A stretch of 64,000 bases of DNA from Bilabrum cf. latius (GCA_965178125.1 OZ237749.1:434001-498000), one strand, 5' to 3'. Shown: positions 1 through 64,000, counted from the first letter of the stretch. The notes: generated from the sequence alone by a model not told the origin. Numbers and translations are program-made.

Positions 1-3000
1 ACCTTCACCAGCCACGTGAGCCGAGCTGATCTGCCGCTTCCGCATTATCCTGGCGTGCTCCTCGTCGATCAGCTCGCATGCCTCGTCTACCATCGACTCG
101 GTGCGCCTGACTGCGTGCAGCGCTGTCAGCACTCCAAGCGTGGTGCAGATGACGGCAGCCATGACACCGAGGTAGGAAGGACTGACCACCATCGCAAATG
201 CGAGGCCCCACACAAGGCCCATGGCTAGGCCAGCCACGATGGAGATGAACGGAGTGTTGTCCTCGACCAGCTCATCGGCTTGGAGATCGTGCCTGTAGGC
301 AGGGAGCACGAACGGGCTGAACAGGAGCGGACCATCAGCCGCAAGCCCGCGACCCAGCGAGTCTTCCGGCGCGCGGAAAGGATCCGCACTGAACACGCCT
401 GCTCGCAGCAGGCTCATCACACCATACCCAATCAGAAGCACTGCAAGCAGCCACCAGCTGGCCGACAGGCACGCCACGATCACCGCCAAGGAGCCATCCC
501 TAACGTAGAGCACGGCACCGACGACGATTCCGGCGACGACAAACAGCATCACGACGCCTCCAAAGGCATAGTTCACGGCGGGAGGCAGGTAACCGTTGTG
601 CGCCAGAGCGTATACAATCGTGCAAGTCACAGCAAGCCCGAACAGGTAGGCGACCAGCACACCGGCGGTCACGGCGACGTTGTTGAAGACAGCGTTGGAT
701 GCCGCGATAAAGCCAATGATAACCAGCTGCGAGATCAGCAAGCACATGTACACGAACGTCGCAGATTGGGACTTTGACTTCTCCTTGGCCTCTTTGAGCT
801 CGTCGCGACGCACGGCCGACTTGGATCTCGTCAAGTCGCTCGGCCCGTCGCCGCCAGCGGCTGGCTGGTTGCTAGCTGCAGCGGGCTTGGGCCGTAGACA
901 AGCGAACATGTTGAAGAGAACTCCGGGCGCGGTCACACCTGGCAGTTGCCACTCCTCGTCTGACCACTTGTAGGCAGCAACAAGCGAAAGGATGAGCGCT
1001 GGGTACAGGAAGAAGGCGAAGAGAACAGCCAGCAGGTTCGTCCCGGCTCCTTCCACGTTGTCACTGTTCTGCTGGCCGTAATCAGCCATGATCGGGATGT
1101 GGCAAGCGGCGTGCAATGCACCGGCAATCACGAACAGGAGAATCTGCACGATGCGCAGCTCCAGCAGACCGAAGTACATGCGGACAGCCACAAAAACGGT
1201 GGCCGAAGCAAGGAGCATGCCGGCGGCATACCACGCCCAACGAATCGGCTTGAGACCAACAGCCACCACAGATGCAAACCCGACGAGAATACCGACTAGC
1301 AGAAGCGTTCCAACCAGCATCATGGTGTTCCTGAGCTAGTTTGCGCTCAGAGTACACGACTGCACGTCCTGCATGATCTTGCCGACAGAAGGCAGCTTCA
1401 GCTTCTTGGCTTCTCCATCCTCGTCGCCGAACTTTTTCTTCGTGTCCTCGTCTTCAGGCGTAGGCTTCTCGTCCCCCTCTTTGTCGCCAGAGTCTCCCCC
1501 GGCAGCACCGCCTCCAGATGCAGACGCCGCGGCAGCTCCTCCCCCGGCACCGCCAGCATCTTTGTCGGCCTCTTTGTCCTTCTCACCCGAGTCATCCTTC
1601 TTGGGTTCATCTTTCTGAGGTCCCTCTTGTTCATCGTCTTCGTCGCTGTCGCCATTCTTGGCCTTGCCATCCTCGTCGTCCTCGGTGACCTCGATTCGGC
1701 CGCACATCGTGTTGGCCGCACAGCAGCAGGGAAACCAGCCGTACCCGCCAGGAAGCACCACCGAGTAATCGTCCGACTGCAGCTGCCCGTACAGCGCAAG
1801 GAAGAGCACGTAGGCTGCGGGCAAGAAGCAGAGCGAGCCCAGGATGATGTACGAACGCGTGGCCGCAAAGAGCATGCCACCGAGACCGGCACACCCGACT
1901 ACGAACACCACCGCAGTTACCCTTGTTCCCAACGACACGATCCGTCCGCGGTCATGCCTCAGGAAGAAGTGCAAGAAGAACAGCCCAAAGCACGCCAGGA
2001 CGAGCACCAGCGCGCCCAGCCCGAAAGTCCACTGCGGGTGACTCGAGTCCAGGATCTTTACTCGGTCGCTGGGCAGGGCATCGATCTCGCCCTGGAGCCA
2101 GGCCAGAAGAGCCACAAGACCCGCGAATACCACCGTGAGCAGTGCAAGTAGGAAGAGCGGTGACGAGACAAGCTCAACCCAAGAGTTGCCGCAGAGACCA
2201 GCAGCTTTCGCCCTCTGAGTCGGTGGCTTGGGGGCGGCAGGTGCCGCGGCTGGTGCGGGGGCAGGGGCGGGGCCAGCCTTGCCAGCCTCTGCGTCACCTC
2301 CCGATGCACCCTTGGCAGGGGATCCGGGCAGGGCAGGAGCCACGCTGCTGCTGGCATGCGGGGTGCCAGACGCCGTGCTGGGACTCGAACGGGTGCCAGT
2401 ACTGCTCGCATCGTCCCCGCTGACTGCATCGGCAAGGTCGTGCAGCTGTGCGATGAGAGCAGAGAAGTACCTCGCCGCACTTTTGTACGCAAGGAACACG
2501 CCGTACGCGGCGTAGGCAAGGGCAACGCCCAGCAACCACAGCCGCGTCCCCGCCGCCAGGAGCAGGAACCTGCTTGCTGCCAGCACCAGCAGAACGGTGC
2601 CTGTTTCCAGGAAGAGACCGCCCTGAAACCCGAGAGCGGTGATGCCGTCGAGCACGAGAACGGCTCCCGCCGTTGTAATTCCGAGTCCCTTGCCGCTATC
2701 GCTGGCGTTGTCGGAAAGGACGAGAACGGTGACTGCCAGCCCGACGAGGACGAGGACAGAGAGTGAATACAGCACGATGGCCGTCAGGCGACGGCTGCCT
2801 GCCTGCGCCGCTGCCGCCCTTCGGTCGAACCAGACCGCAGCGGCGGGCGGACTGATCACGCGCACGTGGGCAGAAACCGCTTCCTTCAGGCTTCCCGATG
2901 CTTCATCGAGCGCCTGCCCCGCTTCAGCTGCGCCCAGGGCCGCCATGCTCGGTTCGTTGGCACCAGCCCCGGAAGCCGGTGGCTGACGCGAGCCACCGGA

Positions 3001-3888
3001 CGATGGTGACGAGTCGCCTGCACTGCTAGATCCGACCGCCTTGAGCTGTGCGGTTCCTACCACTCCAGAGGCCATCAAATCCATGTCGTAATGCCTCTCC
3101 GCAGAAGCCCACAGGTGCACGGCTCCCATTGCCAGCACCGCGTTGGCACCCAGAAAGGCCCAGGCGGTGGACAAAAAGGAAAAGTCGTAGCTCCTCACGA
3201 CGGTCGTATCCGTGCTTGCAGTTCCGTTGCTCGACGATCCCGTGGGCACCTCGGTGTAGTTTCCGTTGTACACGATGGCGAGTTCAAAGGCGACGATGAG
3301 GAGCAGGGCAGCAGAGGACGAGATGCCGATCGGGGACAGGACGGCGTCGACGATCCCAGGGGATCGACCAACGGCCAGCCGCCATCCACGCACGACCCAC
3401 TGTCCAATGCCGTACATGAGCAGAAAGAAGGCGGGCCCCAGCGTCAGCAGGCCTACGCCGATGAGAGCCGGCTGCACCTCCACGAGCAGCAAGATCGACC
3501 TGCGGGATCCGGGGAAAGTAAATGCAAGAGTGTTACACCAAAAATTAAAAATCCACAGGAATGCAGACTGCGCAGCCAATGTGGTGGATTAAGATCTTGC
3601 CATCGTTCCGCCGGTCACTCACCAAACAACTAGAAGGACCACCGCTGTCACAACGGCAAGATAGCCTAGCAATGACAGCCAAAATGAAGCCACAAAACTA
3701 GAAATGCAGCTTTGGAAGGCATGGTGCAGATAGGCCACGCGAAACTTTGCACTAAACACGATATACAAGGAAGCCGCCAGGAACACCGTGAAAGGTATTC
3801 CCAAGGAGATCCAGAGGCCAAAGAACTCGTCCCTCTACTTTGAATTGAAAGCAGTTTCAAACGAGTCCGCAGCAGATTGCTCTGACAT
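1..3888 (-). CDS. DEK1-like (transmembrane calpain-type) multi-pass membrane protein, N-terminal part; runs off the window start
   Basis: ATG 3888, in-frame TAG 3835, intron 3500-3622 (GT..AG), ORF 1336-3579, in-frame TAG 1336, then open to base 1. Many hydrophobic helices. Motifs PALILSLVAAYKWSDEEWQL and FSPFVLPAYRHD...GLVWGL resemble the plant DEK1 membrane domain (PAL..KWKDDxWxL; PxVLPVYVYD...GWGV). No catalytic calpain domain is visible in the window. Confidence 0.65.
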
Positions 3889-4704
3889 GGCCCTACGAGA
3901 CCAAAATAGTGAGTAATTCGCAAGGTAGCAGAATTGACCGTTTGGCTTATCGACAACTCGGATAAACTTTTGTCGTTCTTGCGGATCCAGCTTCCTATTC
4001 TGACCAGATGCTGCTCTTTCCGACCAATACTGCACGATTGAGATGGTTCCGAATTCTTGTTAGCGTGTGTTCCTGTGACAGCACGGGTCCACAATGGCAG
4101 TATTGCGCTGGTGCGGGCAGGTGGCGAGGCGTCGCGATCGTGCGGCTGCTACCGGTGGAGGCGATCTGGGCTGCGCAGCAAGATGCTGGGCAGATTGAAG
4201 GCTTCAGCAGCTACGGCAAACCGAAAAGACTTTGATCGTCGAGGCCCGCAGGACTAGCCCAGTTGTGGTGGCCCACCACCACTGGCACTGGTGGCCCCGA
4301 CTCGGGCAGCCTCAGGCTGAGGGGACAATGTGGTGATCATCAATGCCAGTGGTGCCTGTTCCATCGCACGCTAGACGTCTTGACTTTGTGTGCACGAGCT
4401 AGATGTAGAAGCATCACTAGCTCAAGGGTCCCGCGATCCGTGCAGTTCTGTAGTCTGTCGGCGCTGTTAGGCGCCGCGCGCTTGGACCATCTTGCGGAAC
4501 CAAGTAACCGGTGCAAGACCTTCTGTGGCATCTTTCGATATCTTGGCGGCCCAGCGAGTCCAACGAGCATCAAATTACGGCTGTGTATAGTTAATACCTT
4601 CTTATTCGGCTTAGCGGCCTTGCACGCGGACCTGAGTCTGCATCGCCATGTAGGCTCGCGACGGCATTTTTCCAGGGCAGGCAAGGCCTGATCACGACAA
4701 CCCC

Positions 4705-7700
4705 ATGGGCAGCGAGTTCGGGTTCAATTCAGCCCAAAGCATTGGAGAAGAATACGGACTTGTGCCGGTCAAGAAAGAGAGGTAGTGCTCAACGTGGTGT
4801 ATAGCCGCGGCTGCCATCGCAACTATAGTATTGATTGCGGTGGCCGTCACGCTTGGCGTGGTGCTGGCAGGCGGAAGCAATGATGATTCCACCAGCTAGC
4901 CATAGGATCCGGTGGCAGGATAGTCGCTTGATGCCGCTGTATTGGTGGATGCTGCCTGTGACACCCAAAGCACGAATGGAGCATTGGCGGGTCTGTTTTC
5001 GCACTACGCCCAGGTAGAGTTTGTGGCAGACAGCGACGTGTCCTGTGTACAAGCCGATAGCATATTAGATCAGCTGGAGCTTTCGTCGGGCATCGGCACT
5101 GAAGCCATACTCTTGGCCATTGAATCGCAGCCGGATTCCCGATTAGTTCGGCGTCGCGTGCTTCGGGATCGCAAGGTATAGCCCGCCACAGCCAGTGGTC
5201 GCAATGCGCGCAGGCTTTAGACATAGGTCGCATTCATTGTCAGAGCTACGTTTCTAGCTAGGAGCGAAGCCGAAGCAAATGGCGCTGCTCGACTCGTTGC
5301 TGATGCAATCAGTGATGGCAGCCTGCTGGACGGCCTGGAAGCTGCTCTCGAGGGCAGCGGCATCTAGTTTGACTATTCCACGGATGCGCAGCGCAGGCGA
5401 GTGCTCGTGGGCATTCTTACGAACGGAGACGGAGACACTACGAACGACGACCTCTCCTTACCGTCGAGCAGCGCAACCCCTTCAGTGTCCACTACAACTA
5501 CCCCAACTCCCGTCGCTCCCTCGGGCACCAGCACGGCATCGGCTCTGCCCAGCGAGAGCCCCACGACGAGCCCCACGCCATCCATCTCCAGCACGGCCTC
5601 ACCGACTGCGTCGGTCTCGAGCTCGCAGACCCCAACTCCTTCGGTGTCACCATCAGGGAGCCCCACACCCAGCACGACTGCTAGCCAGTCGCCCACACCC
5701 AGCCTCACGGCCAGCCCGAGCGTGTCTTCGACCCCGAGTACGAGCATGTCGGCGAGCCCATCCACTTCGCCGACCCCAAGCGTCTCGGCGACGCCGACTA
5801 TATCAAACACGCCAAGCATCACTCCAGTGAGTGCTGCCTCTTGCGTAGATGCACACGCTAAGATGCCGTTTACCCATCGAGAGAAGGCCTTGCTCAAGCC
5901 AGCATGCTGTTGCTGTGCCAGCCCACGAATGTTGCTGCCCCACAAGTCCATCCTTTGCACTCCCCTTTCGTGTTTCACCCCATGCAGACCCCGTCAATCA
6001 CTCCCAGTGGGACACCCACTCCGGTGAGTGCAGCCATGACACGATTATCAACGACCCCAACCGCTGCCCTCTCCACCAGCATGCGCCACGAATCGCTGCT
6101 CTACCATTTCGTTCCCGCAGTCTGCAACACCAACGCCAGTAAGTATGCCGTGCAGTATCCGTCGCACCCTGTTGTAGCTTTCCGATGAACGTTACGCAAC
6201 ACATCGCCAGCTGGAATTCTCCCACTGTAAATGTGTTGCATCTACCAAATGGCCCACAGGCACCTCTCGGCAACTTTACCATGTTCGTGAACAGCATGGT
6301 ATCCCGGAACTCTGCCACGTCAGCCAACGTCGTTGTCTACGAGCACGACACGCGGAGGCGCATCACCAACGGCACCGCCTCGAATTCGGAGGGAATCGAG
6401 GTCAACCTGCAGCACGGATCGGTGGCATACGAGGCTGTGGTGGAGGACGAGGCCTTCTATTCTCTCGAGCCAGTGATCTTCTTTCGGCCGTCCATTGAGG
6501 TCGACCTAGTGGTTCCAGCCCTGCCTGTGCTGAACGACAGCTCGATCACCTACGTGGCGCTGCAGTCGAACCAGCATCCCGTCGCTAGACTCAAGGCAGT
6601 CACGGGACCAGGCGAGAGCACGCTGGCCGCCTCGATCGTCAACAGCGTCAATTTCACGGAGAGCCAGACATGCGTGGTCCCGGGATCCTCCCCATGCGAG
6701 CTGACCGACACGAGCCTTGCCATCGGCACGGGCACCACATCATCGTACGGGTACTCTAGCCTCGTCTCGATCACCGACAAGAATGGCAGGTGTCAGGATG
6801 GCACGGCGCCGGATCCGACCCAGTGCATCGCCAGGATCACGGTGAGAGAGTGCATCGCTGCTTGCCACAGTGATACCTGTGTCGCGCTCTTGCGTGACAC
6901 TCTGCTTGCACTGCGGCTCGGGTGCAGAAAGGCTGTGTTCCGTCTCCACTCAATCATAATTCCTGATACGTGCAGCTACCCTAACATATTGATGCTTACA
7001 CTACGCAGGTCTACGGCACGAGCGCAGACGTGAAGGGCACGGTTGGGGGTGTGGGGACACCACAGATCGACGACGATCAGTGGCAGCTAGATAGGCAGAT
7101 CGATCGGCCCGGAGGTTTCGATTGGGAGCAGATCACCATGTCTGCAGGTGTGCGAGGCTTTCCTGCGCCCAGCCTGTTCGACTTTGTCGACTCGCCCGCG
7201 GTATCGATCGTGGATGCAGCCACGGGCGCAAGGACGGTCCTCCGCGCGAGGGACGCAGTCACGCAGGCTACTGTCGACTACGTCAATGAGACTGGGGCCA
7301 TCTGCAACGAGTGGCTTGCGGGGGCTGTGAACGTGTCGGACGGAAGCGTGATTGACTACCGCAATTCGACCGTGAACTCGAGCATCAACTGGGTTCTGGA
7401 GGAGTTCTTCATGACGAATTGGTACGAAGGATACGAGTGGTCCGACTAGCGCGCTATTGGTCGCAAGGACTTTGTGCCTTCCAACGTGTCTACGTATCCG
7501 TTCCTGTGCGGGCTGCCGCCATCGTTCTTGGCGGACAACCTGGAGACGATCGTTGGCGCGTACCATGACGATTATTACATCAACAGGATTGTCCGGCCCA
7601 CGTCAATGCTGTAGTGGATCGAGTATCACTTGACGAAGTCGAGCTTCGACGAGGAGAACCCCCCTTCCGCCTATTTCTACAACGTTGGTGACACGAGCAA

Positions 7701-7974
7701 GGTAGCTGCGCGGCGCTCTCTGGGTGGCACTACCATTGGCGGCAAGCACAATCACGAAGATCAGAGCGACTCCGTGAGCGATCGCCTTCAAATAGAGCGA
7801 TTGCTCGCGAACAGAGATCCACTCACCGGTAGGATGCTCATGGACATCCACGACATGCCGGACCACCTCACGGAGGAAGAGAGGGAGCATCCCGATGCCC
7901 AACGTGAGCACATGTTCTTGGGCAGGAACCCCACGCGGCCTTGGCTGCTCGAGTCAGGAGAGCTTCTCATTTGA
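4705..7974 (+). CDS. Type II membrane/surface protein with Ser/Thr/Pro mucin-like stalk, function unknown
   Basis: ATG 4705 and an N-terminal TM helix (CIAAAAIATIVLIAVAVTLGVVLAG). Several in-frame TAGs, including RRL* at 5218-5220. TPS-rich tract ~5460-5826. Predicted introns 5827-5987, 6024-6120, 6139-6259, ~6842-7008. Ends TGA 7974. Confidence 0.7.
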
Positions 7975-8165
7975 TTCGCGATCTTGCTAGCAGCCCTTGT
8001 TTTAATCTTGTCCTCTGCTACTACTGGCGCAAGCAGCTCTGCACCACACAGAGAGAGAACCTCGAGTCTTCTTCTTCATAATCAGTCCATCAAAAATGCC
8101 ACTTTCACAGCAGATTCTCGCCCGGGACTCGCTTGCAAATACTACGGCCAACAATTGTTCAAAGT

Positions 8166-11100
8166 ATGGATTCTGGTGCCGCGGAAAGATCGCAAGAGCT
8201 CGCTCAGCCTCAGCTAGTGCGAACAGCAACTGATGTGGAACGGGCGAGCCAAGCTGACCACTACTCAGTGCAAGATCCACGTTTTCGCTGGAATGAACAG
8301 CTGCAGTCAATCGTTTCATTGCCTTGCTCGACTCCAGAGGAATCACGGGTTCGGCGTGAAGCAATTGGCAGGCTTGGCAGGCGATTCGGACGAGAGATCA
8401 GACCTGTATGCGAACAAATAGTTGCCGAGATGGGGTTACCAGACCCAGAGAAGACCATAAAGCCTGCCAATGTTGGTGGTATTGCTGGGGGTGTCAAGTT
8501 TATTCACAACGGTGTCCTTCTTAAATTTGCAAGTGACGACGTAGGCATCTACGGGAACTCCAAGGAAGGGGCCGGAAAGGCTGCCAAACTTGAATTCAGG
8601 GCATTGCAGACTCTTCTCGGTCTGAGCGTCGACGGTCTTCATGTTCCATTGCAAAGTGTGGCCCAGGTGCAGGGCTACAGGATTATCGCGTGTGCCTTGC
8701 TGCCAATCTCTGCAAGCTCGCTCGTTTACGGGTCCGCCGACGGCGGCCACACAGTTCACTGCGACTCATCAAAGTTTGCAAAGGTCGCTGAATCCGTTGC
8801 CAAGCAGTTGTTTCTGGCGCAGCACCCTGTTCGAGGGGTCCCGATCTGGCTCGCAGCCGATATCGAGGGCCACAGAGGAACAGACGGGAGACTGTACCTG
8901 CTCGACGCCGCGAGACTGATGCCGGCAGAAGCGCCGCCAACCCAACTGCACGGTGCTATCATTCCAGCAGATGCTGCGGGCGAGGGGGGGCTTCCTGGTG
9001 CGTGGGTCCCAGTGTCGGTGCCGTACAGGGGCACGAGGCAGACTGCATTGATAGGTAGGGACATGCTGCTTGAGCATCTCAACACGAGAGTCTCTTCAGA
9101 AATGGAAGGTGTGATAGACGCGACTGCAGTTGCCGCCACTCAAGGCGGTTCCTCTGCAGTAGGTGCTGATCGTATCACAACCGCTGCACCGAGCCCAACC
9201 GCCGCTGCCACAGGCGGCGCTGCTGACGAGGCACCATCAGCACCAAACCCGGCGACCAGTGACTCTGACGATGCCCCCACATCTGATGTCGTGCATGCCG
9301 ATAGTTACACAGTTGTCGAATTGTCTGGAACTGGGGGTCATGTGCTCCCAGCCGATGGCTATACCGCGCTGGCAGCTGGAGGTGAAGCATCACCGGCCCC
9401 AGGCATTGCAACGCCAGCTGCCTCTGGTGCTGGTACTTCCGAAGTAAAAGCGCATGTTGCCACCGGATATGCGTCTATCGAGGAGCTGGACACTGGCCCT
9501 GACCCAGGAGTCGTGCCTGCTGTAGCCGCAGGCTATACACAGGTAGACACTGTGACGGAGGGGTGGGGCAGGTCTGCCGCATCTGCCGCTGCAGGGAGTG
9601 CTTCATCGACCGCCCCCCAAGCAGCAGTTTCCCCTTCTCCAGGTGTTTCAGACGAAGCGCAAGCGCCTGCTCTGCAGGCTACGCCGGCATTAATCGGCGT
9701 GATGCTGGTCAAGACGTCATGGCCTCGTGCGTGCGCCATTGTGATGCTGAACCAGAGCCATCCAGATGTCATTCGCATGGCTGAAAATCGGCTTGCCAGT
9801 GCCTTGTTACCCGACGGACGGACGGCCTTGAGGGGTCCTGTTCTGCTTCTATCCTGGAGGCACAAGGGAGAGCATCTCACCAGACTGCTGCGTCCAGAGC
9901 TGCTACAGCGCTTCAGGCAGCCAGTTAGCGCCGATTCGCATAGCGGATTTGGCAAGGAAGACAAAGTAAAGCACAATGCCGTCGCGCGCGAGGCGACGGA
10001 GTTTCTTGCCTCGGCTGCCATTCCTGATTTTGCCCGCTCTTTGGATTGTATATGGGGGGGAAAGGAACGTTCTAGCAAAGAGAAAGACAGTGCGACAGGC
10101 GCTGGGCAGGCACCCACATCACCACTGGCCGAACCTCAGCCTGGCTCGCAGTCCGGCGGAGACACCAGCGACAACATTGGGGCTGAATCCCTGGCGCGGA
10201 TGGAAGCGGCTGTGCGCGATCATGAACGTAAGCTCAAGTTCGGCGATAGGTCGCCAAGCAGCCGCGGGAGAGACGACTCGGAGCTGCGGCAGCTAGCCCT
10301 GACAGACCCTCGAGTTTGGTCCGCGGCGGAACATCCTTACTCACTTGATGGCACTGCCGCAATTAACCTTGAAAGCAGGTGCCACGCGGCTGGTGTGCCA
10401 TTCAGAGCTTTCGGTAGAGTCAGGAGCGAGCTGAAGAGCAAGACTGCGCGCGAAGTGGTGCTGGCAGCCGCAGTGGTCAGGGCACTTCGGAGGATCGTGC
10501 TGGCAGCCACCGATGAGCTGGAGCGGGACCAGGAGGGCGCATTGATGTCTGATGAATTGAAGTGGGCGGCGGCTTCTGATCTCTTGGGGGGTTCCGCTGC
10601 AGCTATTAGTCGTGAGGCTTCGGCCGCGCGGCCGCCTGCAGAAGTTGCGCTGCAGCTGCTCCTGAACGTGCTATCGGAGTGCATTCCGGACAGGGCCGCT
10701 GCGGCGGGATCGCATCGTCTTTCTAGCATCGTGTCGTTTATTTGCTACTCCTTCAGCAGTTTGCTGCGCATCGTGCTGCTCTCGAAGTTCGAGAAGATTC
10801 TGTCCGCTCAGGAGCTGGGAGATGGTGTGTGCCCTTGGAGGGACTGTCTCGGTGGTCAAGCCAAGCAGTGGGTCCTGCGCAGCCTGGTGGAGAAACTTGG
10901 CGCGAAATGCGAGTTGGTGTGTAAATTAAACGACGGGGGCACATCGCTTGGATTACCCGCTGACGGCGGGTCCGCCGCTCTCGTTCCTGCCAAGCAAATT
11001 GTGGTACGTAGTTTAAGTGCGATCGTGCACCACCTCGATCCAAGCTTGGACCGGCTGCATGTCGAATTCAAAGCGAATGAAGATGATTTAGGTGCCTCAG

Positions 11101-17346: not shown

Positions 17347-17378
17347 AAATGTGTCACAAATACAGCGACCCTGGGTGC

Positions 17379-51481: not shown

Positions 51482-52900
51482 ATGCCTTTCTTTGCGCTGC
51501 TGGCTGCAACAATCCCATTTCTGATTATTTGCTCTGCCGCAAAGGCTGAGTCTAGCAGTCTGCCGCTTGCCAGGACATATGCGCAGTCCTCCGATCGCAT
51601 TTGCGTGACTCACTGGGGCGGATGCTACAACCGAAGCACGACGGCGTACATTATGGACGGCGCACAGCAAATCTGGGACTTCGGGTCTCGAGCAATCAAG
51701 ATTAACCTTGTGGCCGGTCGCCAAGCGTATCGCTGGAACAGCCCTGGGTGGCCAAATCGATTTAGCTCTGCGCTTGAAGCTGCCCAGCACCCGTACATAC
51801 GGAGCGTGCTTGACCCTGCAGGCAATTTTCAATGGAGCACCGTCACCATGATCGTGTATGCACTCTAGAACGATTCAAGCAGTAACAACTATTGGCGGGA
51901 TTCATTCACTGCAAATGATGCTGCGCGAGAAGAGGAGCAATTCAAGGAACTCACGGTCCACCTGCTCGAAACGTACCCCAACATGCACTTCGTTTTGCAG
52001 CATTGGGAAGGCGACTGGTCTATCCGGCCTACAAGCGATCCATCGCTTCGTCCAACACCTCAAGCCACTAAAAATATGATTGCTTGGCTGGGCGCGAGAC
52101 AGAGAGGGGTGCAGGCTGGCAGGGAGCTGGCTGAGGAGCGCAGGGCACGGTCCGGGAGACGCTGGCAGGCCGGGGCTGGAGCCGGCGGTGGGTCGGTCCT
52201 GCACGCAAGCGAGGTCAATTTGGTCCGCAGCAGCATGCAAACCGGCTTCCCAAACGTGGTGAACACGGTGCTCCCCCACGTCGCCCTCGATATGGTGTCT
52301 TATTCGAGCTACGACACGCAAGGGAATGGGGGTCCTCTCGGATACAGGGCAGCTCTGAGCTTCATCGCGGAGCACGCCAACCGCACGGCAGAATCCCCCA
52401 AGGAATTCGTTTTCATCGGGGAATACGGCACAAAGCAAGAAATCGCCCCTCTCCATGTCACGCAGGCAGTGAACGAGGTGGCGGCAGCTGCGGTCCTGGG
52501 CAACGACACGATCGGCCCGCTCGATTTCGTGGCAAGGGCGTGTTTCTGGGAGGTGTACGGGAACGATCTGGTAGATGGCCCCAGTGGTGGCTTGCCTGTG
52601 CTGCAATCGTCCATGGGCAGGGGTGGAATAGGGTTGCTTGCCGGTGTGGCAGGTCACTAGCACAACCTGCCTAGCTGGCTGCTGGCTCGGGCGGAAGGTC
52701 GCAGGGTAGAGATCGAAGGGGAGGCAAGGATCGGATCAATGCAGGGGGTCGGATCAAGCGATCTCCGCCATGGTAGATGCACCACCGAGCCTGTATTCAA
52801 TGCCTCGCAGCTGGGCGGGCTGTGGCTTGTGAAGCCTGACGGGAGCCATGCGTGGCCGTATGACTATCTGAGGGGTCGCATTCTAGACGGGGCGGCATAA
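51482..52900 (+). CDS. Secreted protein, putative TIM-barrel glycoside-hydrolase-like (~472 aa)
   Basis: Signal peptide; HWEGDW, LDMVSYSSYD, VFIGEYG, FWEVYGND and GLWLVKPDGS motifs. In-frame TAGs end at 51868 and 52660. Ends TAA 52898-900. Confidence 0.7.
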
Positions 52901-53148: not shown

Positions 53149-55253
53149 TCAGTCTCCCTTGATCTGTCCGTAGATGAAGTCCACGAACCAAAATGTCGCC
53201 AAGAACCCCACCGCTCCAAACATGACAGAAAAACCGGCGGACATGACGCCCATGTACCCGAAGTACACGAGGCTCTGCAGCATGCCACTCATCCCGCTAT
53301 GCTGATAGTAGTAAACAAAGGAATACGCGAAGATGAACGCGCCCACCATGCTGCCGCTTAGGTAGGCCCTCCACTGCCACGTGTAGTCTTGCCTTGACAA
53401 CTGCAGGTACGCCAGAGCGATGCAGATGAACGCAACCACCAGGGTGAGCAGCCCGAACGCCAGTAGCAAGATGCCAAACATAGTGTACACCATGTGGCCC
53501 CAGATGGCGATGAAAATGTAGTGCAGCTGCACCGAGATCGCACTGAACGGCAGCAGCCCAGCCCCCAGCAGGTGCACCGCAGTCCCTTGGTACCACGGCG
53601 TCTCAGGCAGTGTCCTCATCGTGGTGCTAACTCGGCAAGGAGGGGAATAGTCCTGCCCGGAACCTCTCCCGCACCACGCCCCAAAGAGGCCTCCTGGCAA
53701 CGCGACTACGGCAAACAGACCCAGAAATGCCGCGATGGTGGCAGCTGGCAGCGCCACAGAGGAGCCTTTCTATATGGCCACAGAGTTGATCACAGAGAAA
53801 ACGGCGAGTAGAATCCCAGGAAATAAGCACATGCTGATGATGGCCGACTGAGTGCGACTGCCACCGTCCCCTGCTGCAGCATCTCCCTTGCCTGCCCCTC
53901 GCTGGGCCGAGTCGCGGGCCGCAGCAGCCCCTGCTGAGGCGCCCACAGTCGAGGACCCGAATCGGTTGTACCCTGTGCCCCGAGCCGTTAGCTGGGCGAA
54001 GAGCCGCGAGGCCACGAAGCCACCGATAGGCGCGGTGATGCAGTAGAGGACCATGGCGGCCACCACGATGGCACCTCGGCGGGTCACGTGGAACGTGTTT
54101 GTCACGGCGAGGACTAGCAGCAGCGTGGCGGTGGTGAAGAGGTGCATGCCCGCACCCACCAGACCGGCGAGGGTCGCGTGGCTGCCGGGAGTGCGGAAAA
54201 CGTTCGTGCGGATGAGCTTCCAGCCGTTTTCATCGGCGGTGTCCCCCTCTTCGTCGCGCAAGGCAGCGGCGAAATCGCTGCGCACCACGCGCGCCAGGAC
54301 AACGCCCAGAAAGGAGACGAGCAGGACGACGAGGACCACTGAGTTTGAGATGCTGTACCAGTGCACCTGGGTGCTGCCCGGCAAGAAGGAGCTGTCGTGG
54401 TAGCGGCCCATCCGATCGTGCCACTTCTCCGTCGTCTGGATCCACTCCACGCTGTAGCTGAACTCGATGGACAGAGGCGATTGCCTGCCGTGGGGGTAGC
54501 TTGCCGTGGGCTCGTCGGACCTCGAGAGCTCCACCCTCTTCTCCGGCGGGGCGGTAATGTTGATCGCAATGATTTTGTCGTCATTGTACGCGATGGAGAA
54601 ATGCAGGTGGGTATAGACGTAGTCCTTGCTCTGACCCGTGGCATCGCCGATGAGCCCAGTTTCGTCCTCGTGCTCGCCCACGAAGGACCAGGCCGGCAGG
54701 CCGTCGAGCACGAACTCGAACTGCGATAAGAGCCGGAGAAGGCAGTTACGTTGCAAGTGCCAATGAACCATCGGTAACTTGTACAGTTGTGTGCTTGTCA
54801 ATTCGCTCACAAAGTAGTCTTCTTGAACGGCAAGGCGCAGCCGATCAACCTCGCCATCCGATAGCTCTTTCTCGCACAGCAGCCGCCACTCGTAATTCAC
54901 AATATATCGAATGTCATAAGCTGTGGAGTATCGCCTATCCCCGGCTAGGTACTCTCCAATACTGTGCGCAACAACAACAAAAAGTGGTGCTCGGACACTT
55001 GGAGTACCATGCAACATGAGTGGATTCGATTCCAGCGACGCAGAGCTTTATCTTACCTGTGCTATTTCCTATCATAATTCTTGGGGGGGCAAAACGGCAT
55101 AGAATAGTAGCTGTACGTTTCCGAGGGGTTGTTGAACGGTGAAGTCTTGGCCGCCTGCAAGTCAACGCTGTCGTGAAACTGGTATGTCTTTGGCCTCGAG
55201 GCGGTTGCCATGGCTGCCAAAAGTGATGTTCCCACACACAGACAAGACCACAT
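53149..55253 (-). CDS. TM9SF: Transmembrane 9 superfamily (nonaspanin/EMP70), TM9SF1-like
   Basis: PFNNPSETYSYYSMPFC, SIGEYLAGDR, VHWYSISNS, GWKLIRTNVFR, GLLPFSAI, WQWRAYL and C-terminal IKGD. Introns 54962-55056 and 54721-54810. In-frame TAGs at 55062 and 53770. Ends TGA 53149. Confidence 0.95.
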
Positions 55254-57434: not shown

Positions 57435-60400
57435 ATGATGCGAACAGTTCTAATATCTTGTATAGTCCTCATAAACGGTGGCCTAGCGCAGTGTTCTTGG
57501 AATCAAGAGCCCTTGCGGCTGGCACAGGTTCGGCAATGCTTCGATGACGGTGGTGCTTACAATGAAACCAGAGCTCAGCAAGAAGTCAATATTGTCCGGC
57601 ATGCAATGGATCATTACTCATATTTGGATCTGGTACGAAATAGCGGGCCGCCATGGGACTATAGGCTCGACACGACAGCAGTCTTGCAGAACCTATCGGA
57701 AACAGCATCTGTCCCAGGAGCCTATGCCCAAGATTGGTCGTTCTACGTGAGTGAAGCGCACGAAGTGCCCAGTAACGCAGTATATACCCACTCATGCGTA
57801 TTTTTGGGACAACTTTAGCTGTTGTGCGGCGTGGGGGGAGTCCGTTCAGCCCGGCATGGCGCCAATTCCGCTATCACACTTTCCCTTTCACAACCTTGCC
57901 ATCCGCATGTTCGATGGCCCTGTCCGCCCCATTTTTATTGAATGCGCAGGAAGCACTATCTACGCCGCTACGAGCCATGGGTGACTCTCATGTTGCGGTG
58001 CTAAAGCCCTCCTGCTACGCAATCATTGGCGCCCAGCCGGTATCTCCTGCACCATTTTACCTAGACAGGCAGAACCCAAACCAAGTTCGATATTTCTTAA
58101 CAGAATTTAAACTTGGCTAGCTAGATCTCGCCAGGACGTACGATCCCGGGGCCGTGGCGTTCCTACCAGCGCGTGAGGTCAGCCGCAGCGTCCTCCAGCT
58201 GTACGAGGTGCTGGCAGTCGATGGACTAGCACCGGCGGAGTACATTGCAAGTATCATTAGTGATCCAGCAATCACGTCGCCGTACAGCCACGATCCTTCC
58301 GTGAGCTTCACCGCGGCTCTGCGCAACCTGCAGGCGAGCCTGCGGCTGCTGCAGCTAGACTCTTTGCCGGCAAGCAGATAGGTTACCTACACCTTGCGGC
58401 GATGCGAGGCCCCCATGTCTGGAACAGACGTAGACTCTGCGGATCTGACGCAGCTGGCCTGCGCGTAGAACCTTGCTTCGAACGAGGTCACGCTGCGGGC
58501 CGATTGGCTCTTCTTCCACACGGCTGCTCGCCGGCCCACCACTGCTGCACAGTTTGCTCGCCTGTGCGAGCGGCAGTCGGCCCGGCCCGAAGTAAGGACA
58601 GGAAGCAGCTGCAGGGCCTCGGCAGTGCCGCGCTCGTCGGACGACGGCCGTCGCGAGCCCGGCTGGCTGGCCAGGGCGAGCATGTTTACCAGCGAGGGAG
58701 CGAGGGGTGCCCTGCTGCGCAAGAGCATACTGGAAGACGCGCGCTCGTCACACCAGGGGAGGTTTCTCGGGGAGCACCCTCGACAAGGGCAATAGGAGGA
58801 AGAGGAAGGAGGTGTTGAAATGGTGCCAAAGGTGAGCGGGTACAGGAGCGCACTCAAGCACATGCTCGGGAGCATCGAGCGGAGGCATGCCCGCGAGGAG
58901 CCGAGCACCGGAGGTCGACGGGCCCGAGCAGGGGCCCAGGGAACAAAGGAGGAAGGCTCAATCTTCGCGTTGAATGCCCTGCGCGCCCTTGACGACTCGG
59001 AGCCGGTCTGGGCGACGGGCACGGGCACGGGTGCTGTGGCCGGCGGTGTGCCCTCTGGGGCGGCGCTGGAGCAGCTGCGCGAGGCTGACTTTTCGCGCGC
59101 TCTGCAGGAGAGCGGCACTGGTGGCAGCGGGGCCACATCGCGGTCGGACCTTGCTGACGTGTCCACCGTGCGACGTCTTTAGGCCGCGGACTCCTCCGAC
59201 GAGCAGTCCATCTTCGAGGTCGTGCGCACCGTGTTCAACACTCATCACACCCAGGAGCTGCGGGAGGTGGAGGAGAGGCGCCAGGCCCTCATTGCTGATC
59301 CGAACGTCACCGCAGTGCCCACGAAGGAGCTGCTGCTGACGGCCCGCAACTACACCTACACGAGCATTTTGCTCAAGATACCCTCCTTTTCCCCCAGCGT
59401 GTTCACGTCGTGCTTCGCTGGGGTCGACGTCACGTGCGGCACCGACGTGGCGCTCAGCGAGCTGGACACGTGCTTGAGCAACGCAGCTGCGACCTTCCTG
59501 CGGCGGGGCGCCGCGGGCGCTTACCAGTTCGCACGGGCGAGGAATGCTTCCCAGATCATCGTGGACGTGACCGGCAACGATGGGGGGGTCGTGCTCCTCG
59601 GCAGGATGACCGCAGCTGCGCTCAGTGCGCAGGTGACGAACGTTCCGTCGCTCGCCGAGTACGCGAACGAGATGCGCCCGGGGTCTGTCGTGTCGGCCAT
59701 GGCGAGGTTCGTGGATCAGCAGAACGGTGTTGGCTCGGCTCGACGCCTCGCCTCTATGCTGGGGCTTGAGGAGGTGCCCGGTGCTGGGCGACAGCAGCAG
59801 CAGCGGCAGTAGGGGCACGCGAGGTCACACATGGACAAGCGGAAGGACAGGAACGATATCGATGCTATTCACAGCAGGCGGCTGCAGCAGACCGTGACAG
59901 CCAGGCACTTCCCCTCCTTCCCTCTTTGGGGCCTCCTCGACCCCGTCGATACCGCCGTGAGTGCTACTAGTCCGGATGCTTCCATCGCCGTGGACGACGT
60001 GGACGGCGGGCACGGTTGGTTCTATGCTTCTGACGAGACGCGGCGCTGGGGCGGTGGCAGGCATTCGGTGACCAAGGCCGTGAAACTCTTCGACCTCACC
60101 GCCGAGATGGCCGAGCTGCCTGCCGATGTGTTCCCCAGGAGTCCTGGGGAGCTGATTGCTCCCATTCCGATCATCATTGCCTCGGACGGCATGTGCGGGT
60201 CAACGTGCGCGTAGTTCCTTCGGTCCATCGTGGACACGGGATTGGGCACGGTGCTTGGCCTCGTGGCAAGCGCTGGCACTGCCTATCCGGTCAGCGTGAC
60301 CGACAGCTTCGCCGGCGGCTTTATCGTTCAGGACTCCGACAGCCAGCTGGTGCTACCGTACATGGAGGCAAGGGAGCTGGGAATGGCCGACCCGGCCACG

Positions 60401-62581
60401 TTCGCAGACGGAACCCCCTTCGAGCCCCCTGCCTTCATGCCTAGCTCGGCCAATGTTGCCTACAACTTTGGCTCGGCGAGGTCGAAGAGGAGACCGACCT
60501 ACCCCCTATAGTTTGATCCGCAGAGGGCAGACGCCTACGCCGTGGACCAGAGCCTCAACATTGCCCAGCCTCCGAGCGACCTGCAGTTCGCCGCGTATCT
60601 GGCCTCTGAGGCAGGGCGCAGGCTCCCGTACACGTCCAACCCCTTAGTTGCCGCTGCCACGCTGGTTGAGGCGGGCACTAGGAACGAGCTGCTGGCGCAG
60701 GCGGTGGATACCCAGGCCTTGGATTCCGTCGTGGAGGACGAGGTGCAGAGGAGGGCCAATGCCACGCTTCTCGTGCTCCTCGCTGCTGTGGGCGACACTG
60801 TCAGCCGGCGGGACTACAACATCCTGCTGTACGTGTGCATCGCGCTGGCGGTCGTTGCGGTGATCGCGCTCCTCCTCGCCCTGCTGCTGATCTGCTGCCT
60901 TGGCGGCGGAGAAGAGGAGAAGGACGTGCAGGTCTCGCAGAGCACGACGCTCACGAGGAAAGGCTCCAAGCGAACCGTGACTGTGCGCCGGCGCACCATT
61001 CGAAACCTGAAGAGCGAGAGCAGCCTCCAGCTCGACCCCAACTCAGGGGAAGCGGGCAGCAGCGCGGAGCACAGGAAGAACTCTTTGCACACAAGGTCCT
61101 TCCGTGTCGTCACCGCCAAGGGCAAGAACAAGCGATCGGGCGCTGGGTCCAGCGAGGAGTCCAGTGCCAAGGGCAAGAACAGGCTGCGAACCAAGGGCAA
61201 GGGCACCAGCTCGTACGGCAGTGAAGCTAGTGATGTGGGTGAGTTTGATGAGGAGATAGATCTTGGTGACAATGCCATGTCCAAGAACCGGCTCAAGGGC
61301 AGAGATAAGGGGAAGGGGGAGCGGGGCGCGGCGCTTGATCTGGAGCTTGAGCCCGAGAAGGAGGGGAACAGCAGCGGGGACGGGCTGGCTTCGGTTGGAG
61401 TGTCCCCGTCGGAGCGAGGGATGCAGAGGGAGATGTCGATCGTGAGAGAGGAGGAGGAAGAGGAGGACGAGACAGAGGACGAGGGATCGATGAATCGATA
61501 GGCCAGCTCAGGCATGGTGGACGGGCAGTTTTCCTTCCAGAACGCACTTGAGAAACAGGAGGAGAGGAGGAGCAGGCGAGACAGCAAGGAGAGCGGCAGC
61601 GCGGACAGCAGGGACTATGAAGGCAGAGACAAGGTATCGCATGACGTGGAGAGGCACATATTCAGGCACAGATACGAGGACGACAGGGCGCAAGGGTCCG
61701 CGCACAGTCGCGCTCAAACGTACGGAGGCTCCCATGTTGTGCATGCGTGGGGCACAAACGGTGGTCCTACATCGGGAGGCAGCCAGTACCGATCCATGCG
61801 CCATGCCGTCGGCTCCTTTAGGTACGGGTATGGCAGGCCACGGGCAAATTCGCCTCCCAAGGCGATCGCGGCGACCACTAAGCCTAGGTGGGAGTCGCAG
61901 GACGGCTCTGACGGCGTCACAGATGACAGATCGGTGGCGACCTCGGTGGCTGCAGGCGAAGCCTCTGCGGCAACTAGTGCAGCACCTGAGACGCACGGCT
62001 AGACAAGTGCGTCTCACGGCTACAGCGCCTCTGCGGGTAGCAGCACCAGCCTTCGCGCCAACAAACCCACGGCTCATGCCCATGCCCGGTCCCAGCGAGG
62101 CATGGTCCGCGGCCGCAGCAGCAAGCACGGGTTCCACGATCCGTTGGCCGACCCGGACCACGAAAGGAGCCCCGCCCCCCTCAAGCAGCGGCCCAGCCAG
62201 CTGGACGTGCGGGGCAGGCAGGCGCCTCTGCGGGTCGCGGTCTCTTTCCAGGAGCAGTCTCAGATGGCAGAGAGGCTCGAGCGAGAGAACGAGCTGCAGC
62301 GGCAGGCAATGGGAGAGGCTCTCGTTTTTTCGCAGGGAGGTGACCAAAAAGCCGCGGAGGCTGGCGTGTATGCTGGCCAAAGCAGGCCGGCCACGACCAC
62401 TGCCGCTGGCGGGGCCGAATCGCCGGCTTCGAATGGTAGCAGAGGCCCCGGGCCGCAGAGCCCGAGCACGCCGCGGGTGCGGGTCACCATCAGCGAGCTG
62501 ATGACGGCGGGCAAGGAAGACGGAGGTGGGGGCGGAGATTAGGACTCCGGCAAGGGGGGTGGCGCTGCTGCGAGCACCTGA
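57435..62581 (+). CDS. Large type I membrane protein with eukaryotic S41 (tail-specific protease-like) peptidase ectodomain and disordered cytoplasmic tail
   Basis: Signal peptide, intron 57747-57949, MGDSH, IIVDVTGNDGG, IIASDGMCGSTCA*F, SFAGG and a TM helix ILLYVCIALAVVAVIALLLALLLICCL. Same-frame pieces are joined by TAGs ending at 58120, 58381, 59182, 59812, 60214, 60511, 61501, 62002, 62542. Ends TGA 62581. Confidence 0.75.
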
Positions 62582-62755: not shown

Positions 62756-63989
62756 TTACAAGCCCAGCCACGACTTCCATGAGAGCGCCTCCCTGTGGGC
62801 TGCTTCGTCGTCGGCGGTCTGGTTGGGCATCTTGAGCGCCTTTCGGATCCACTTCTTGGCCTCGTCTTGGTGCCCCAGCTGGTAGTGGCACATGCCCAGA
62901 TGCAGCACGTTCTGCTTCCAGAAGCCCGGCCTGAGGTCTTCCGCAGCCTTGAAGTGCTTCAGGGCCTCTTCGAACGTGCTGGTCGGGGGCTTCCGGAACA
63001 CCATCGCGGCGATGTTTCGTGTGACAGAGCTCATGTTGGAGACGTCGTAGCACCACCGCCCGAGCAGGTGCCTCGCGTTCGGGTCCTTTGGGTTGAGCTC
63101 GACCGCTTTGAGCCACTGGTCGCGCACACGGTACGATTTGGCGATGTAGTCGCTCGTGGTGGAGAACTCCCCCGTCGAGTTCATCGCAATGCCGTAAAAT
63201 CGCCTGGCAGACGCGCTGTTTTCGTTCAACATGACCGATGTGGCCGCGGTGCGCTCAGCGAGCTCCAGCAGCCGCTGGCGCTCGTCTGCCATCATCCTGT
63301 GGTCCTCCTGCGTTAGCTGAATGGCGGCGCGCGCCAGTCGCCACCCGAGCTCTGCAACAAAGAATCGCTCAGGGGCAGACATTGCATCGGGGTCCAGCGG
63401 CTCGTCGTCCGATGACTCAGCGACGGCATCGTACGCTCGCTTGCACGTCTCATACACAATCCGCCGGGTGTACTTGCTCGCTTCTCTTTCCTTCTCGTCC
63501 AGCTGCAAACAAGTAATTCAAACAACTTCAGGTAAACTTAAGTACAGCGAAAGTACAAGGCGTTGCGATGAAGCGCCACACCACACCGGCGAATCGTTTT
63601 TTCTGTTCCTGAAACGAAGGCAGTCTTCGACACAGGAAGAAGCAACGGCTGCAGATGGTGCTTTATTGCACATATGACACTCAACATTATAGCGCATCGC
63701 CTCAGACAACTCTCACTTCTTCAAGGGCATCTTCTGTTCGCTTGCCACGCAAGAAAGATTGGATCTTCTAGCCTATCGTCGGTCGGTCGGGCGTCGTGGA
63801 GGGCGGTCTCATGTCAGCAGACCAAGATGTTGAGCTTGATTTGGATGCTTCGTCCGTACAACGGATGTTAGCTGTTGTGCCAGCAGCCGCAATAGAAATC
63901 GCACCTGCGGCTGCCAATCCGACTGCGCTTACCTTTGCTGCACGGCCCAGCGCAGCCCTTCCGGCTGACGCTCTCCTGGTAAGCAACAT
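62756..63989 (-). CDS. RMDN: Regulator of microtubule dynamics (RMDN/FAM82) family TPR protein
   Basis: ELGWRLARA, KAVELNPKDPNARHLLGRWCY, PPTSTFEEALKHFKAAE, EAKKWIRKAL. N-terminal exon from ATG 63989 with TAG 63768, probable intron 63503-63716. Ends TAA 62756. Confidence 0.9.
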
Positions 63990-64000
63990 TGAAGTTGATC

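What the first reader, a model, noticed from the sequence alone, without database searches (positions are those of the whole stretch)
1..64000. Non-standard nuclear genetic code: UAG is a sense codon throughout the window
Seen: in nearly every gene, consecutive ORF fragments are in the same frame and separated by TAG. I found no internal TAA/TGA outside introns in the junctions checked. Gene D has 7 TAGs, the S41-like gene at least 9 and Clu-SUFU more than 10. TAGs fall inside essential domains (Zn2Cys6 cluster 25599/25560, SRAP 16550, TM9 53770, next to the S41 active-site motif 60212), and conserved motifs continue after them. Four TAGs are retained at homologous positions in duplicates D and E. 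Established: nuclear reassignments usually couple UAA and UAG; UAG-only cases are known from few lineages (the fornicate Iotanema, a rhizarian, some ciliates). Inference: this GC-rich, non-ciliate-looking protist may be an independent case.
Basis: partly seen in the sequence, partly recalled or inferred. Interest (0 to 1): 0.95.

Follow-up and report, generated by a model that had tools for sequence, protein, structure and literature searches.

The report
UAG read as glutamine, not stop
In this GC-rich eukaryotic DNA the stop codon TAG sits inside nearly every gene and in the mature mRNA, and it is most likely read as glutamine while TAA and TGA still end genes, a rare but already known type of altered genetic code in an organism that could not be named.

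Summary
With TAG read through, stop-to-stop frames of at least 1000 aa rise from 1 to 9. Reading TAA or TGA through leaves 1.

In 12 genes (14,584 codons) there are 97 in-frame TAGs and no internal TAA or TGA. Off-frame counts are TAG 109/135, TAA 40/49 and TGA 247/302.

Two runs carry GT..AG-spliced contigs. One unspliced contig with no differing letters spans all 17 TAGs of a CLU-SUFU gene. This excludes introns, editing and assembly error over 1-20000.

Genes end in TGA (11 of 13) or TAA (2 of 13).

Glutamine is the best reading. It is the aligned residue in 10 of 36 pairs, against a 4% background, and in 3 of 5 sites in a close relative.

A metagenome contig from a more distant relative shows the same recoding.

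The code type, UAG=Gln with UAA and UGA as stops, is already known from Iotanema and some ciliates. No tRNA or eRF1 could be examined, because no genome is held.

The taxon is unresolved. It is not Amoeboaphelidium. The "S41" label is not supported.

Verdict: a real recoding, and a new member of a known kind if the lineage is unreported.

The parts
1..3865 (-). Multi-pass membrane protein gene that runs off the window start. It has one in-frame TAG at 1336-1338 and an intron at 3498-3620.
   Evidence: The frame 1-3579 is open only with TAG as sense. The RNA-like contigs of X6 and X7 skip 3497>3621 with CT..AC ends and cover the TAG with no differing letters. No Pfam family was found.
4542..7937 (+). 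Spliced gene for a Ser/Thr/Pro-rich secreted or membrane protein. The joined exons give a 918-aa frame with 11 TAGs.
   Evidence: Joints 5826>5988 and 6840>7008 have GT..AG ends in X6 and X7 and are absent from the DNA runs X1 and X5. The joined frame was read. The borders of the small middle exon are approximate.
8133..15173 (+). CLU-SUFU fusion gene of 2346 codons with 17 in-frame TAGs. It ends in TGA.
   Evidence: Pfam CLU 8e-42 and SUFU 1.3e-18. Human SUFU matches at 4.7e-34 across four TAGs. X6 record 19 covers 9017-15384 with no differing letters and no gaps. Orthologues were found in L001 and in P0068, P0087, P0088 and P0094.
15395..16935 (-). SRAP (HMCES/YedK-type) gene with a TAG at 16550-16552 inside the domain and two more TAGs in the tail. 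An intron lies at 16848-16934.
   Evidence: Pfam SRAP 1.6e-34. Human HMCES matches at 1.5e-14. The joint 16847>16935 has CT..AC ends in X6.
17304..19941 (-). Beta-helix repeat protein gene with at least 3 TAGs and introns at 17791-18036 and 18203-18350.
   Evidence: Pfam Beta_helix 4e-05, which is below the curated cut-off. Both joints have CT..AC ends in X6. Intron ends are GTGAGT..CAG and GTGAGA..CAG.
21807..25652 (-). Zn2Cys6 paralogue A with 16 TAGs, two of them inside the zinc cluster (25599, 25560). It ends in TGA.
   Evidence: Pfam Zn_clus 1.4e-05. The conserved C-terminal block shared with the paralogues lies downstream of 14 of its 16 TAGs; one more TAG lies just before the block and one inside it.
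28882..32307 (+). Zn2Cys6-like paralogue B with 9 TAGs. It ends in TGA.
   Evidence: It aligns with the other five paralogues, including the CxxC..C block. It has no Pfam hit at E 0.001.
32552..37513 (-). Zn2Cys6 paralogue C with 10 TAGs. It ends in TGA.
   Evidence: Pfam Zn_clus 2.2e-07.
39123..43025 (-). Zn2Cys6 paralogue D with 7 TAGs. It ends in TGA.
   Evidence: Pfam Zn_clus 4.3e-05. It shares 5 TAGs with E, and one of its TAGs aligns to CAG in E.
43109..46696 (-). Zn2Cys6 paralogue E with 10 TAGs. It ends in TGA.
   Evidence: Pfam Zn_clus 4.2e-05. It is 85.5% identical to D over 3533 aligned bases.
47176..51288 (-). Zn2Cys6 paralogue F with 10 TAGs. It ends in TAA.
   Evidence: Pfam Zn_clus 2.4e-06.
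26989..28251 (+). Possible ligand-gated channel-like membrane protein with 3 TAGs.
   Evidence: Pfam Neur_chan_memb 3.1e-04, below the cut-off. This annotation is weak.
51482..52900 (+). Secreted protein of unknown family with 2 TAGs. It ends in TAA.
   Evidence: The frame is open only with TAG as sense. No Pfam family was found even at E up to 5.
53149..55017 (-). TM9/EMP70 gene (downstream exons) with one TAG at 53770-53772. It ends in TGA at the same C-terminal position as its homologues.
   Evidence: Pfam EMP70 1.1e-121. In the alignment with 8 homologues, the C-terminus IK.D is shared, and a 28-residue in-frame insert absent from all 8 is taken to be an intron.
57794..62581 (+). It ends in TGA.
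   Evidence: The frame is open only with TAG as sense. No Pfam S41 hit and no PDB sequence match.

Best explanation
The organism uses a nuclear code in which UAG is an ordinary sense codon, most likely glutamine. UAA and UGA remain the only terminators. By analogy with the known cases, UAG would be read by a tRNA-Gln with anticodon CUA, one base away from tRNA-Gln(CUG). That anticodon cannot pair with UAA. The release factor eRF1 would have lost recognition of UAG but kept UAA and UGA. Shown here: TAG is in frame, is kept in mature mRNA, is spread along genes and is shared by relatives; TAA and TGA are excluded from coding frames; glutamine is the commonest aligned residue. Inferred, not shown: the tRNA, the eRF1 change and the actual residue in the protein.
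For: 1. Frames. Frames of at least 1000 aa number 9 with TAG as sense, against 1 under the standard code, 1 with TAA as sense and 1 with TGA as sense. Adding TAA as sense merges no long frames.
2. Codon counts. There are 97 in-frame TAGs in 14,584 codons, with no internal TAA or TGA. Off-frame counts are TAA 40/49 and TGA 247/302.
3. Real genes. Domain matches run across TAGs: SUFU against human SUFU at 4.7e-34, SRAP at 1.6e-34 and EMP70 at 1.1e-121.
4. mRNA. X6 and X7 contigs carry canonical intron-skipping joints (six in X6, three of them shared by X7) that are absent from the DNA runs X1 and X5. X6 record 19 spans 9017-15384 with no differing letters and no gaps, so it includes all 17 CLU-SUFU TAGs.
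5. Terminators. Eleven of 13 complete frames end in TGA and 2 in TAA. The TM9 C-terminus coincides with those of its homologues.
6. Relatives. The L001 contig has a 2011-codon CLU-SUFU frame with 25 TAGs, while its longest standard-code frame is 312 aa. Three fragments of a close relative end exactly at our TAGs 1954, 2014 and 2147.
7. Glutamine. The close relative has Q, A, Q, K, Q at our TAGs, and P(3 or more of 5) is 6e-4. Over 36 aligned pairs Q occurs 10 times, with P = 1e-6 against the 4% background. BLOSUM62 sums are Q 47, E 26 and S 14. The conserved SUFU column NP.Q.TA holds H 58 and Q 39 of 116. Two TAG/CAG exchanges occur between duplicates D and E.
Against: No tRNA was found in the window or in L001, and no genome is held. 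So tRNA-Gln(CUA) and eRF1 are untested.

Most TAGs lie in variable or disordered regions. At single sites the aligned residue is E (HMCES), T, R, A or S.

In the subset of our TAGs aligned to L001, E scores 10 and Q scores 9.

The 36 pairs were picked with a local-identity threshold of 0.29 that I chose. They are not fully independent: the SUFU Q column is counted in both the L001 and the human pairs.

Transcript evidence covers only 1-20000. X6 was labelled 'RNA? (probably DNA)' by the tool; I take it to contain cDNA on the strength of its joints.

That no gene ends in TAG holds partly by construction, because frames were defined with TAA and TGA as the stops.
Confidence: 0.8

Rival explanations
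1. UAG is a sense codon but codes for another amino acid. Glutamate is the most likely alternative, followed by serine, lysine or leucine.
For: E is aligned to TAG in HMCES and at three well-aligned CLU-SUFU columns against L001. In the subset of our TAGs against L001, E scores 10 and Q scores 9. UAG=Glu, Ser and Leu all exist elsewhere (PMC11687900 passages).
Against: The close relative has E, L and S at none of 5 sites and Q at 3. Overall sums are Q 47, E 26, S 14 and K 10, and L occurs once in 36 pairs. TAG/CAG exchanges are seen between paralogues.
Confidence: 0.08
2. UAG has a dual meaning. It is sense inside genes and also ends some genes, depending on context, as in Condylostoma or Blastocrithidia.
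For: This cannot be excluded from 64 kb. Paralogue F has a TAG 9 codons before its TAA, close to where paralogue C ends. The last tenth of the frames holds 15 of 97 TAGs, and some of these could be true stops followed by short in-frame tails.
Against: TAGs are not depleted towards 3' ends. In paralogues A and B the conserved C-terminal block lies downstream of nearly all their TAGs. TM9 and CLU-SUFU end at TGA where their homologues end. The SRAP tail after two TAGs ends in a motif resembling a PCNA-binding box, QKSMLAFL; the motif's meaning is recalled, not tested.
Confidence: 0.1
3. The TAGs are not translated. They would be assembly errors, pseudogene lesions, edited sites or parts of introns.
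For: None was found.
Against: Four runs from four studies agree with the window. Only 2 single-letter differences (both G>A) and 1 one-base deletion were listed over 20 kb, and none lies in a CLU-SUFU codon. The spliced contigs keep the TAGs, and no joint removes one. Internal TAA and TGA are absent while TAG is common. The same pattern is seen in two other organisms.
Confidence: 0.01

Closest known systems
Iotanema spirale (Fornicata): UAG=Gln with UAA and UGA as stops (Panek et al. 2017, PMC5304391; abstract, Background and mechanism section read)
   Same: Only UAG is reassigned, and glutamine is the inferred residue. UAA is kept as a terminator. The predicted mechanism is a tRNA-Gln(CUA) plus an eRF1 with weakened UAG recognition.
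   Different: There UAA is the primary stop; here TGA ends 11 of 13 frames. That organism is an anaerobic metamonad known from a transcriptome. Here there is a 58% GC genomic contig with 87-246 nt GT-AG introns. No relationship between the two is shown.
Ciliates with UAG=Gln only: Protocruzia tuzeti and two phyllopharyngean lineages (McGowan et al. 2024, PMC11687900; passages read)
   Same: The same codon table, and evidence of the same kind (in-frame UAG, with UAA and UGA as stops).
   Different: In those ciliates UAA is the commonest stop and UGA the rarest, and GC is 27.4-53.6%. Here TGA dominates and GC is about 58%. A 64 kb contig with at least 15 genes, a tandem Zn2Cys6 family and introns over 80 nt does not look like a ciliate macronucleus; this is inference, not a test.
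Amoeboaphelidium protococcarum (Aphelida): UAG and UAA both Gln (Karpov et al. 2013, seen only as cited in PMC5304391, PMC6299283 and PMC11687900)
   Same: Stop-to-glutamine recoding in a non-ciliate that is kept with algae. Zn2Cys6 factors would fit a fungus-related organism.
   Different: TAA is not a sense codon here: 0 internal TAAs in 14,584 codons, and no frames merge. The Amoeboaphelidium genomes have 40% GC (PMC10608142 Table 1), against 58% here. The TM9 search found nothing above 47% identity.
Rhizarian exLh and some phyllopharyngeans (UAG=Leu); Scotinosphaera (UAG=Ser)
   Same: UAG is uncoupled from UAA.
   Different: Leucine is aligned once and serine four times in 36 pairs, against ten for glutamine.
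NCBI translation table 15 (TAG=Gln, with TAA and TGA as stops); the table's content is recalled, not checked with a tool
   Same: It would translate this window correctly if glutamine is right.
   Different: It is a table, not a lineage. It says nothing about origin.

Membership tests
UAG-only stop-to-glutamine nuclear code (Iotanema / Protocruzia type) | In-frame UAG inside conserved protein-coding sequence | tested here: met
   There are 97 in-frame TAGs in 12 genes. TAGs lie inside the SUFU, SRAP, EMP70 and Zn_clus matches.
UAG-only stop-to-glutamine nuclear code (Iotanema / Protocruzia type) | UAG present in mature mRNA (not spliced out, not edited) | tested here: met
   This was tested for 1-20000 only. 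The spliced X6 and X7 contigs keep the TAGs, and X6 record 19 spans 17 TAGs with no differing letters.
UAG-only stop-to-glutamine nuclear code (Iotanema / Protocruzia type) | UAA and UGA not used as sense codons and used as terminators | tested here: met
   No internal TAA or TGA in 14,584 codons, against off-frame 40/49 and 247/302. No frames merge with TAA as sense. Frame ends are TGA 11 and TAA 2.
UAG-only stop-to-glutamine nuclear code (Iotanema / Protocruzia type) | UAG aligns with glutamine in homologues | tested here: met
   Q in 10 of 36 pairs, P = 1e-6. Q at 3 of 5 sites in a relative 85-97% identical. BLOSUM sums are Q 47 and E 26. The sample is small and many columns are variable.
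UAG-only stop-to-glutamine nuclear code (Iotanema / Protocruzia type) | A tRNA with anticodon CUA and glutamine identity | not testable with these tools
   No tRNA in the window or in L001. No genome is held.
UAG-only stop-to-glutamine nuclear code (Iotanema / Protocruzia type) | eRF1 N-domain changes that weaken UAG recognition | not testable with these tools
   eRF1 is not in the window, and no genome is held.
UAR=Gln code (table 6 type; Amoeboaphelidium, many ciliates, some ulvophytes) | UAA also read as glutamine | tested here: not met
   No internal TAA. Two frames end in TAA. In-frame TAA lies just upstream of at least 8 long frames.
UAG=Leu code (rhizarian exLh type) | UAG aligns with leucine | tested here: not met
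   L in 1 of 36 pairs. L is not among the six best-scoring residues.
Context-dependent stop/sense codes (Condylostoma, Blastocrithidia) | The same codon also terminates, with sense copies depleted near 3' ends | tested here: inconclusive
   No depletion: 15 of 97 TAGs lie in the last tenth of the frames. Termination at TAG cannot be excluded from frames that were defined by TAA and TGA.
   No Pfam S41 hit at E up to 5. The best PDB hit has E 0.29 and is an antibody chain.

The most novel reading that the evidence does not exclude
An independent origin of UAG-to-glutamine recoding in a eukaryotic clade not yet recognised as recoded. The clade is GC-rich and terminates mainly with UGA. It has at least three sampled members: this organism, a close relative, and an environmental relative only 35% identical in the shared gene. 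A more distant lineage carries the same CLU-SUFU fusion in an uninterrupted standard-code frame, which would bracket when the change happened. This would be a recoding under GC pressure, the opposite of the AT-driven loss of stop codons usually invoked.
Probability: 0.4. Interest if true: 0.75.

Novelty: new member of a known kind. Interest (0 to 1): 0.62.

Why it matters
Nuclear codes in which UAG and UAA have different meanings are few. Each new lineage tests whether eRF1 and a CUA-anticodon tRNA can be separated from UAA decoding in the same way every time.

This case differs from the published ones in two respects. The genome is GC-rich, and UGA, the leakiest stop, is the main terminator.

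There is also a practical consequence. Standard-code gene callers break this organism's proteins at every TAG. The database fragments of its relatives end exactly at TAG positions. Annotations, protein databases and phylogenomic sets built from this clade will therefore be wrong unless TAG=Q is used.

Tried and rejected
Whole genome, tRNA and eRF1:
- No genome is held.
- No tRNA was found in the window or in L001.
- No Rfam family matched.

That protein was not sent again.
- The atlas on the standard-code CLU N-terminus gave only generic CLU clusters with plant and animal labels, which is no help for placement.

Taxon:
- TM9 found 11 hits, all 47% identical or less. The named cluster members are a dictyochophyte, a diatom and a sponge.
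- The CLU N-terminus found 3 unnamed hits.
- The SUFU hits carrying names are animals at 34-36% identity.
- No placement follows from any of this.

Aphelid idea: rejected on GC (40% against 58%), on TAA not being a sense codon, and on the lack of near-identical proteins.

Phyllopharyngean ciliate idea: judged unlikely from stop usage and GC.

RNA runs: no listed holder is on record as RNA. X6 and X7 were taken as cDNA-bearing only because of their joints. Parts of 1-20000 without X7 cover are not interpreted.

Uninformative columns:
- The TM9 TAG column is variable: A, S, V, I.
- Six of the 7 SUFU-region TAG columns are variable or mostly gaps.
- P0095 is too distant (29% identity) to inform TAG columns, except the SUFU Q.

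S41 label: not supported.

Literature: nine searches found no report of a GC-rich non-ciliate UAG=Gln lineage. The library lacks most subscription journals, and supplements were closed, so this is not proof of absence. Karpov et al. 2013 itself was not seen.


Full report
**The window.** The window is 64 kb with 55-61% GC throughout. It has no tRNA and no Rfam match. No whole genome is held for it.

**Frame test.** Under the standard code the longest stop-to-stop frame is 1093 codons, and one frame reaches 1000. With TAG read through, nine frames reach 1000 and the longest has 2363 codons. With TAA read through there is still one. With TGA read through there is also one, although many short frames lengthen because TGA is the commonest stop triplet. 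Adding TAA to TAG as sense lengthens frames only slightly and merges none of the long ones.

**The long frames are genes.**
- Pfam finds CLU (8e-42) and SUFU (1.3e-18) in one 2346-codon frame.
- It finds EMP70 (1.1e-121) and SRAP (1.6e-34).
- It finds the Zn2Cys6 cluster in five of six tandem paralogues.
- The SUFU part matches human SUFU at 4.7e-34 in an alignment that runs across four TAGs.
- The SRAP part matches human HMCES at 1.5e-14 across one TAG.
- Duplicates D and E share five TAGs, not four.

**Codon counts.** In 12 genes (14,584 codons) there are 97 in-frame TAGs, about as many as in the two off frames (109 and 135). There is no internal in-frame TAA or TGA, against 40/49 and 247/302 off frame. 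TAGs are spread evenly along the frames. Eleven of 13 complete frames end in TGA and two in TAA. TM9 ends at TGA at the same C-terminal position as its homologues. Some TAGs near frame starts may lie in leaders, because frames were opened at the first possible start codon.

**Transcripts.** Ten public runs from five studies hold the CLU-SUFU stretch or a part of it; six of them hold half of its sampled words or more. I laid four of them on 1-20000.
- X6 and X7 carry joints with canonical ends: 3497>3621, 5826>5988 and 6840>7008 in both runs, and 16847>16935, 17790>18037 and 18202>18351 in X6 only.
- X1 and X5 lack these joints and run unspliced. The script confirms GT..AG ends for five of the six introns; for the intron at 6841-7007 they fit only with the one-base shift of the cut that notes.
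- I therefore treat X6 and X7 as holding cDNA, although the tool labels X6 'RNA? (probably DNA)'.
- X6 record 19 covers 9017-15384 with no differing letters and no gaps. It therefore contains all 17 TAGs of CLU-SUFU.
- Across 20 kb and four runs only two single-letter differences (both G>A) and one one-base deletion were listed, and none lies at a TAG.
- Introns, editing, pseudogenes and assembly error are thus excluded for this third of the window.

**Relatives.** A search with the SUFU region found P0067 (57% identity) and P0068 (83%).

P0067 led to a 15.3 kb metagenome contig, L001, with 54% GC.
- Its longest standard-code frame is 312 codons.
- With TAG as sense, a 2011-codon CLU-SUFU orthologue with 25 TAGs opens. 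So do frames of 1022, 522 and 474 codons. All of them end in TAA or TGA.
- A 272-codon frame also opens, and Pfam finds a TAF9 domain in it (4.1e-8). Pfam also confirms SUFU (1.1e-21).
- The orthologue is 35% identical to ours over 1902 aligned positions, and no TAG column is shared. That is what synonymous turnover would give.

The exhaustive search found four fragments of a much closer relative (85-97% identity). Three of them stop exactly where our TAGs 1954, 2014 and 2147 lie. So that organism has stops, by the standard reading, at the same places.

A 1977-residue protein, P0095, has the same CLU-eIF3_p135-TPR-SUFU fusion in an uninterrupted frame. It is 29% identical to ours.

**Which amino acid.**
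- At five of our TAGs the close relative has Q, A, Q, K, Q. P(three or more Q) is 6e-4 at the 4% glutamine codon frequency.
- Against L001, in columns with local identity of at least 0.29 (a threshold I chose), the partners of our TAGs are Q, E, I, E, Q, D, R, V, T, S. The partners of its TAGs are E, S, N, T, L, S, R, R, G, Q, Q, Q.
- Human SUFU gives R, Q, T, A, S. HMCES gives E and YedK gives T. Human TAF9B gives T and Q, at a weak E-value of 0.027.
- Together Q occurs in 10 of 36 pairs (P = 1e-6). BLOSUM62 sums are Q 47, E 26, S 14, K 10. These pairs are not fully independent.
- The only TAG in a well-conserved SUFU column (NP.Q.TA) faces H 58 and Q 39 of 116 homologues.
- Duplicates D and E show two TAG/CAG exchanges.
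- Against glutamine: in the subset of our TAGs against L001, E scores 10 and Q scores 9. Most TAG columns are variable, including the TM9 one.
- I put glutamine at about 0.85, given that TAG is a sense codon.

**Mechanism.** The mechanism is inferred from the published cases. A tRNA-Gln(CUA), one base from tRNA-Gln(CUG), reads UAG but not UAA. An altered eRF1 no longer binds UAG (PMC5304391, Background and mechanism sections read). Neither molecule could be looked for here.

**Comparison with known codes.**
- UAG=Gln with UAA kept as a stop is published for Iotanema spirale (PMC5304391, abstract), and for Protocruzia tuzeti and two phyllopharyngean lineages (PMC11687900, passages).
- UAG=Leu and UAG=Ser also exist (same passages).
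- In the phyllopharyngeans UAA is the commonest stop, UGA the rarest, and GC is 27.4-53.6%. Here TGA dominates and GC is about 58%.
- Amoeboaphelidium is reported to read both UAA and UAG as Gln (as cited in PMC5304391 and PMC6299283). Its genomes have 40% GC (PMC10608142 Table 1). TAA is not a sense codon here, so I reject that identity.

**Taxon.** The taxon stays open. TM9 hits reach at most 47% identity, and their named cluster members are stramenopiles and a sponge. The SUFU hits that carry names are animals. The CLU N-terminus found three unnamed proteins.

**Literature.** Nine literature searches found no report of such a lineage. This is weak evidence, given the library's gaps and the closed supplements.

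**Verdict.** The recoding is real. It is UAG-only and most likely to glutamine, and it is shared by a small clade. The code type is known. The lineage may be new.

Noticed in passing
window 21807-51288: There are six tandem paralogues of a large Zn2Cys6 protein. They share a middle block and a C-terminal block. D and E are recent duplicates: 85.5% identical over 3533 bases, near 100% at both ends, and diverged in the middle.
   Followed up: partly
window 8133-15173; L001 1-6036; P0095: A CLU (clustered mitochondria) protein is fused to a metazoan-type SUFU domain. The fusion is conserved in a distant metagenome relative. It is also present in an unnamed 1977-residue protein with an uninterrupted standard-code frame.
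   Followed up: partly
window about 17113-17340: This is a short intergenic repeat. Depth is about 1600 in X1 against 14-29 for neighbouring bins, and many different loose ends lie on both sides. That suggests a dispersed element of roughly 100 copies. No Rfam family matches it.
   Followed up: no
window 15395-15440 (minus strand, C-terminus of the SRAP gene): The SRAP protein ends in QKSMLAFLKKGS, downstream of two TAGs. This resembles a PCNA-binding box of the kind reported for HMCES (recalled, not tested).
   Followed up: no
runs X1-X7: Near-identical sequence is held by runs filed under four different organism labels in four studies. Small shares also occur in an algae metagenome and a protist metagenome. 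The organism may live with, or contaminate, other cultures.
   Followed up: no
window 54724-54807 (minus strand): A 28-residue in-frame insert in TM9 is absent from all 8 aligned homologues, so it is probably an unspliced intron. The N-terminal part of TM9 seen in the homologues is missing from the frame, so further exons should lie upstream of 55017.
   Followed up: no
It has one predicted membrane span and a long charged tail, and it remains unassigned.
   Followed up: partly
L001 7264-8688 and 11048-11866: The relative's contig carries a weak P2X-receptor-like gene (1.6e-05, below the cut-off) and a TAF9 gene, both interrupted by TAG.
   Followed up: partly
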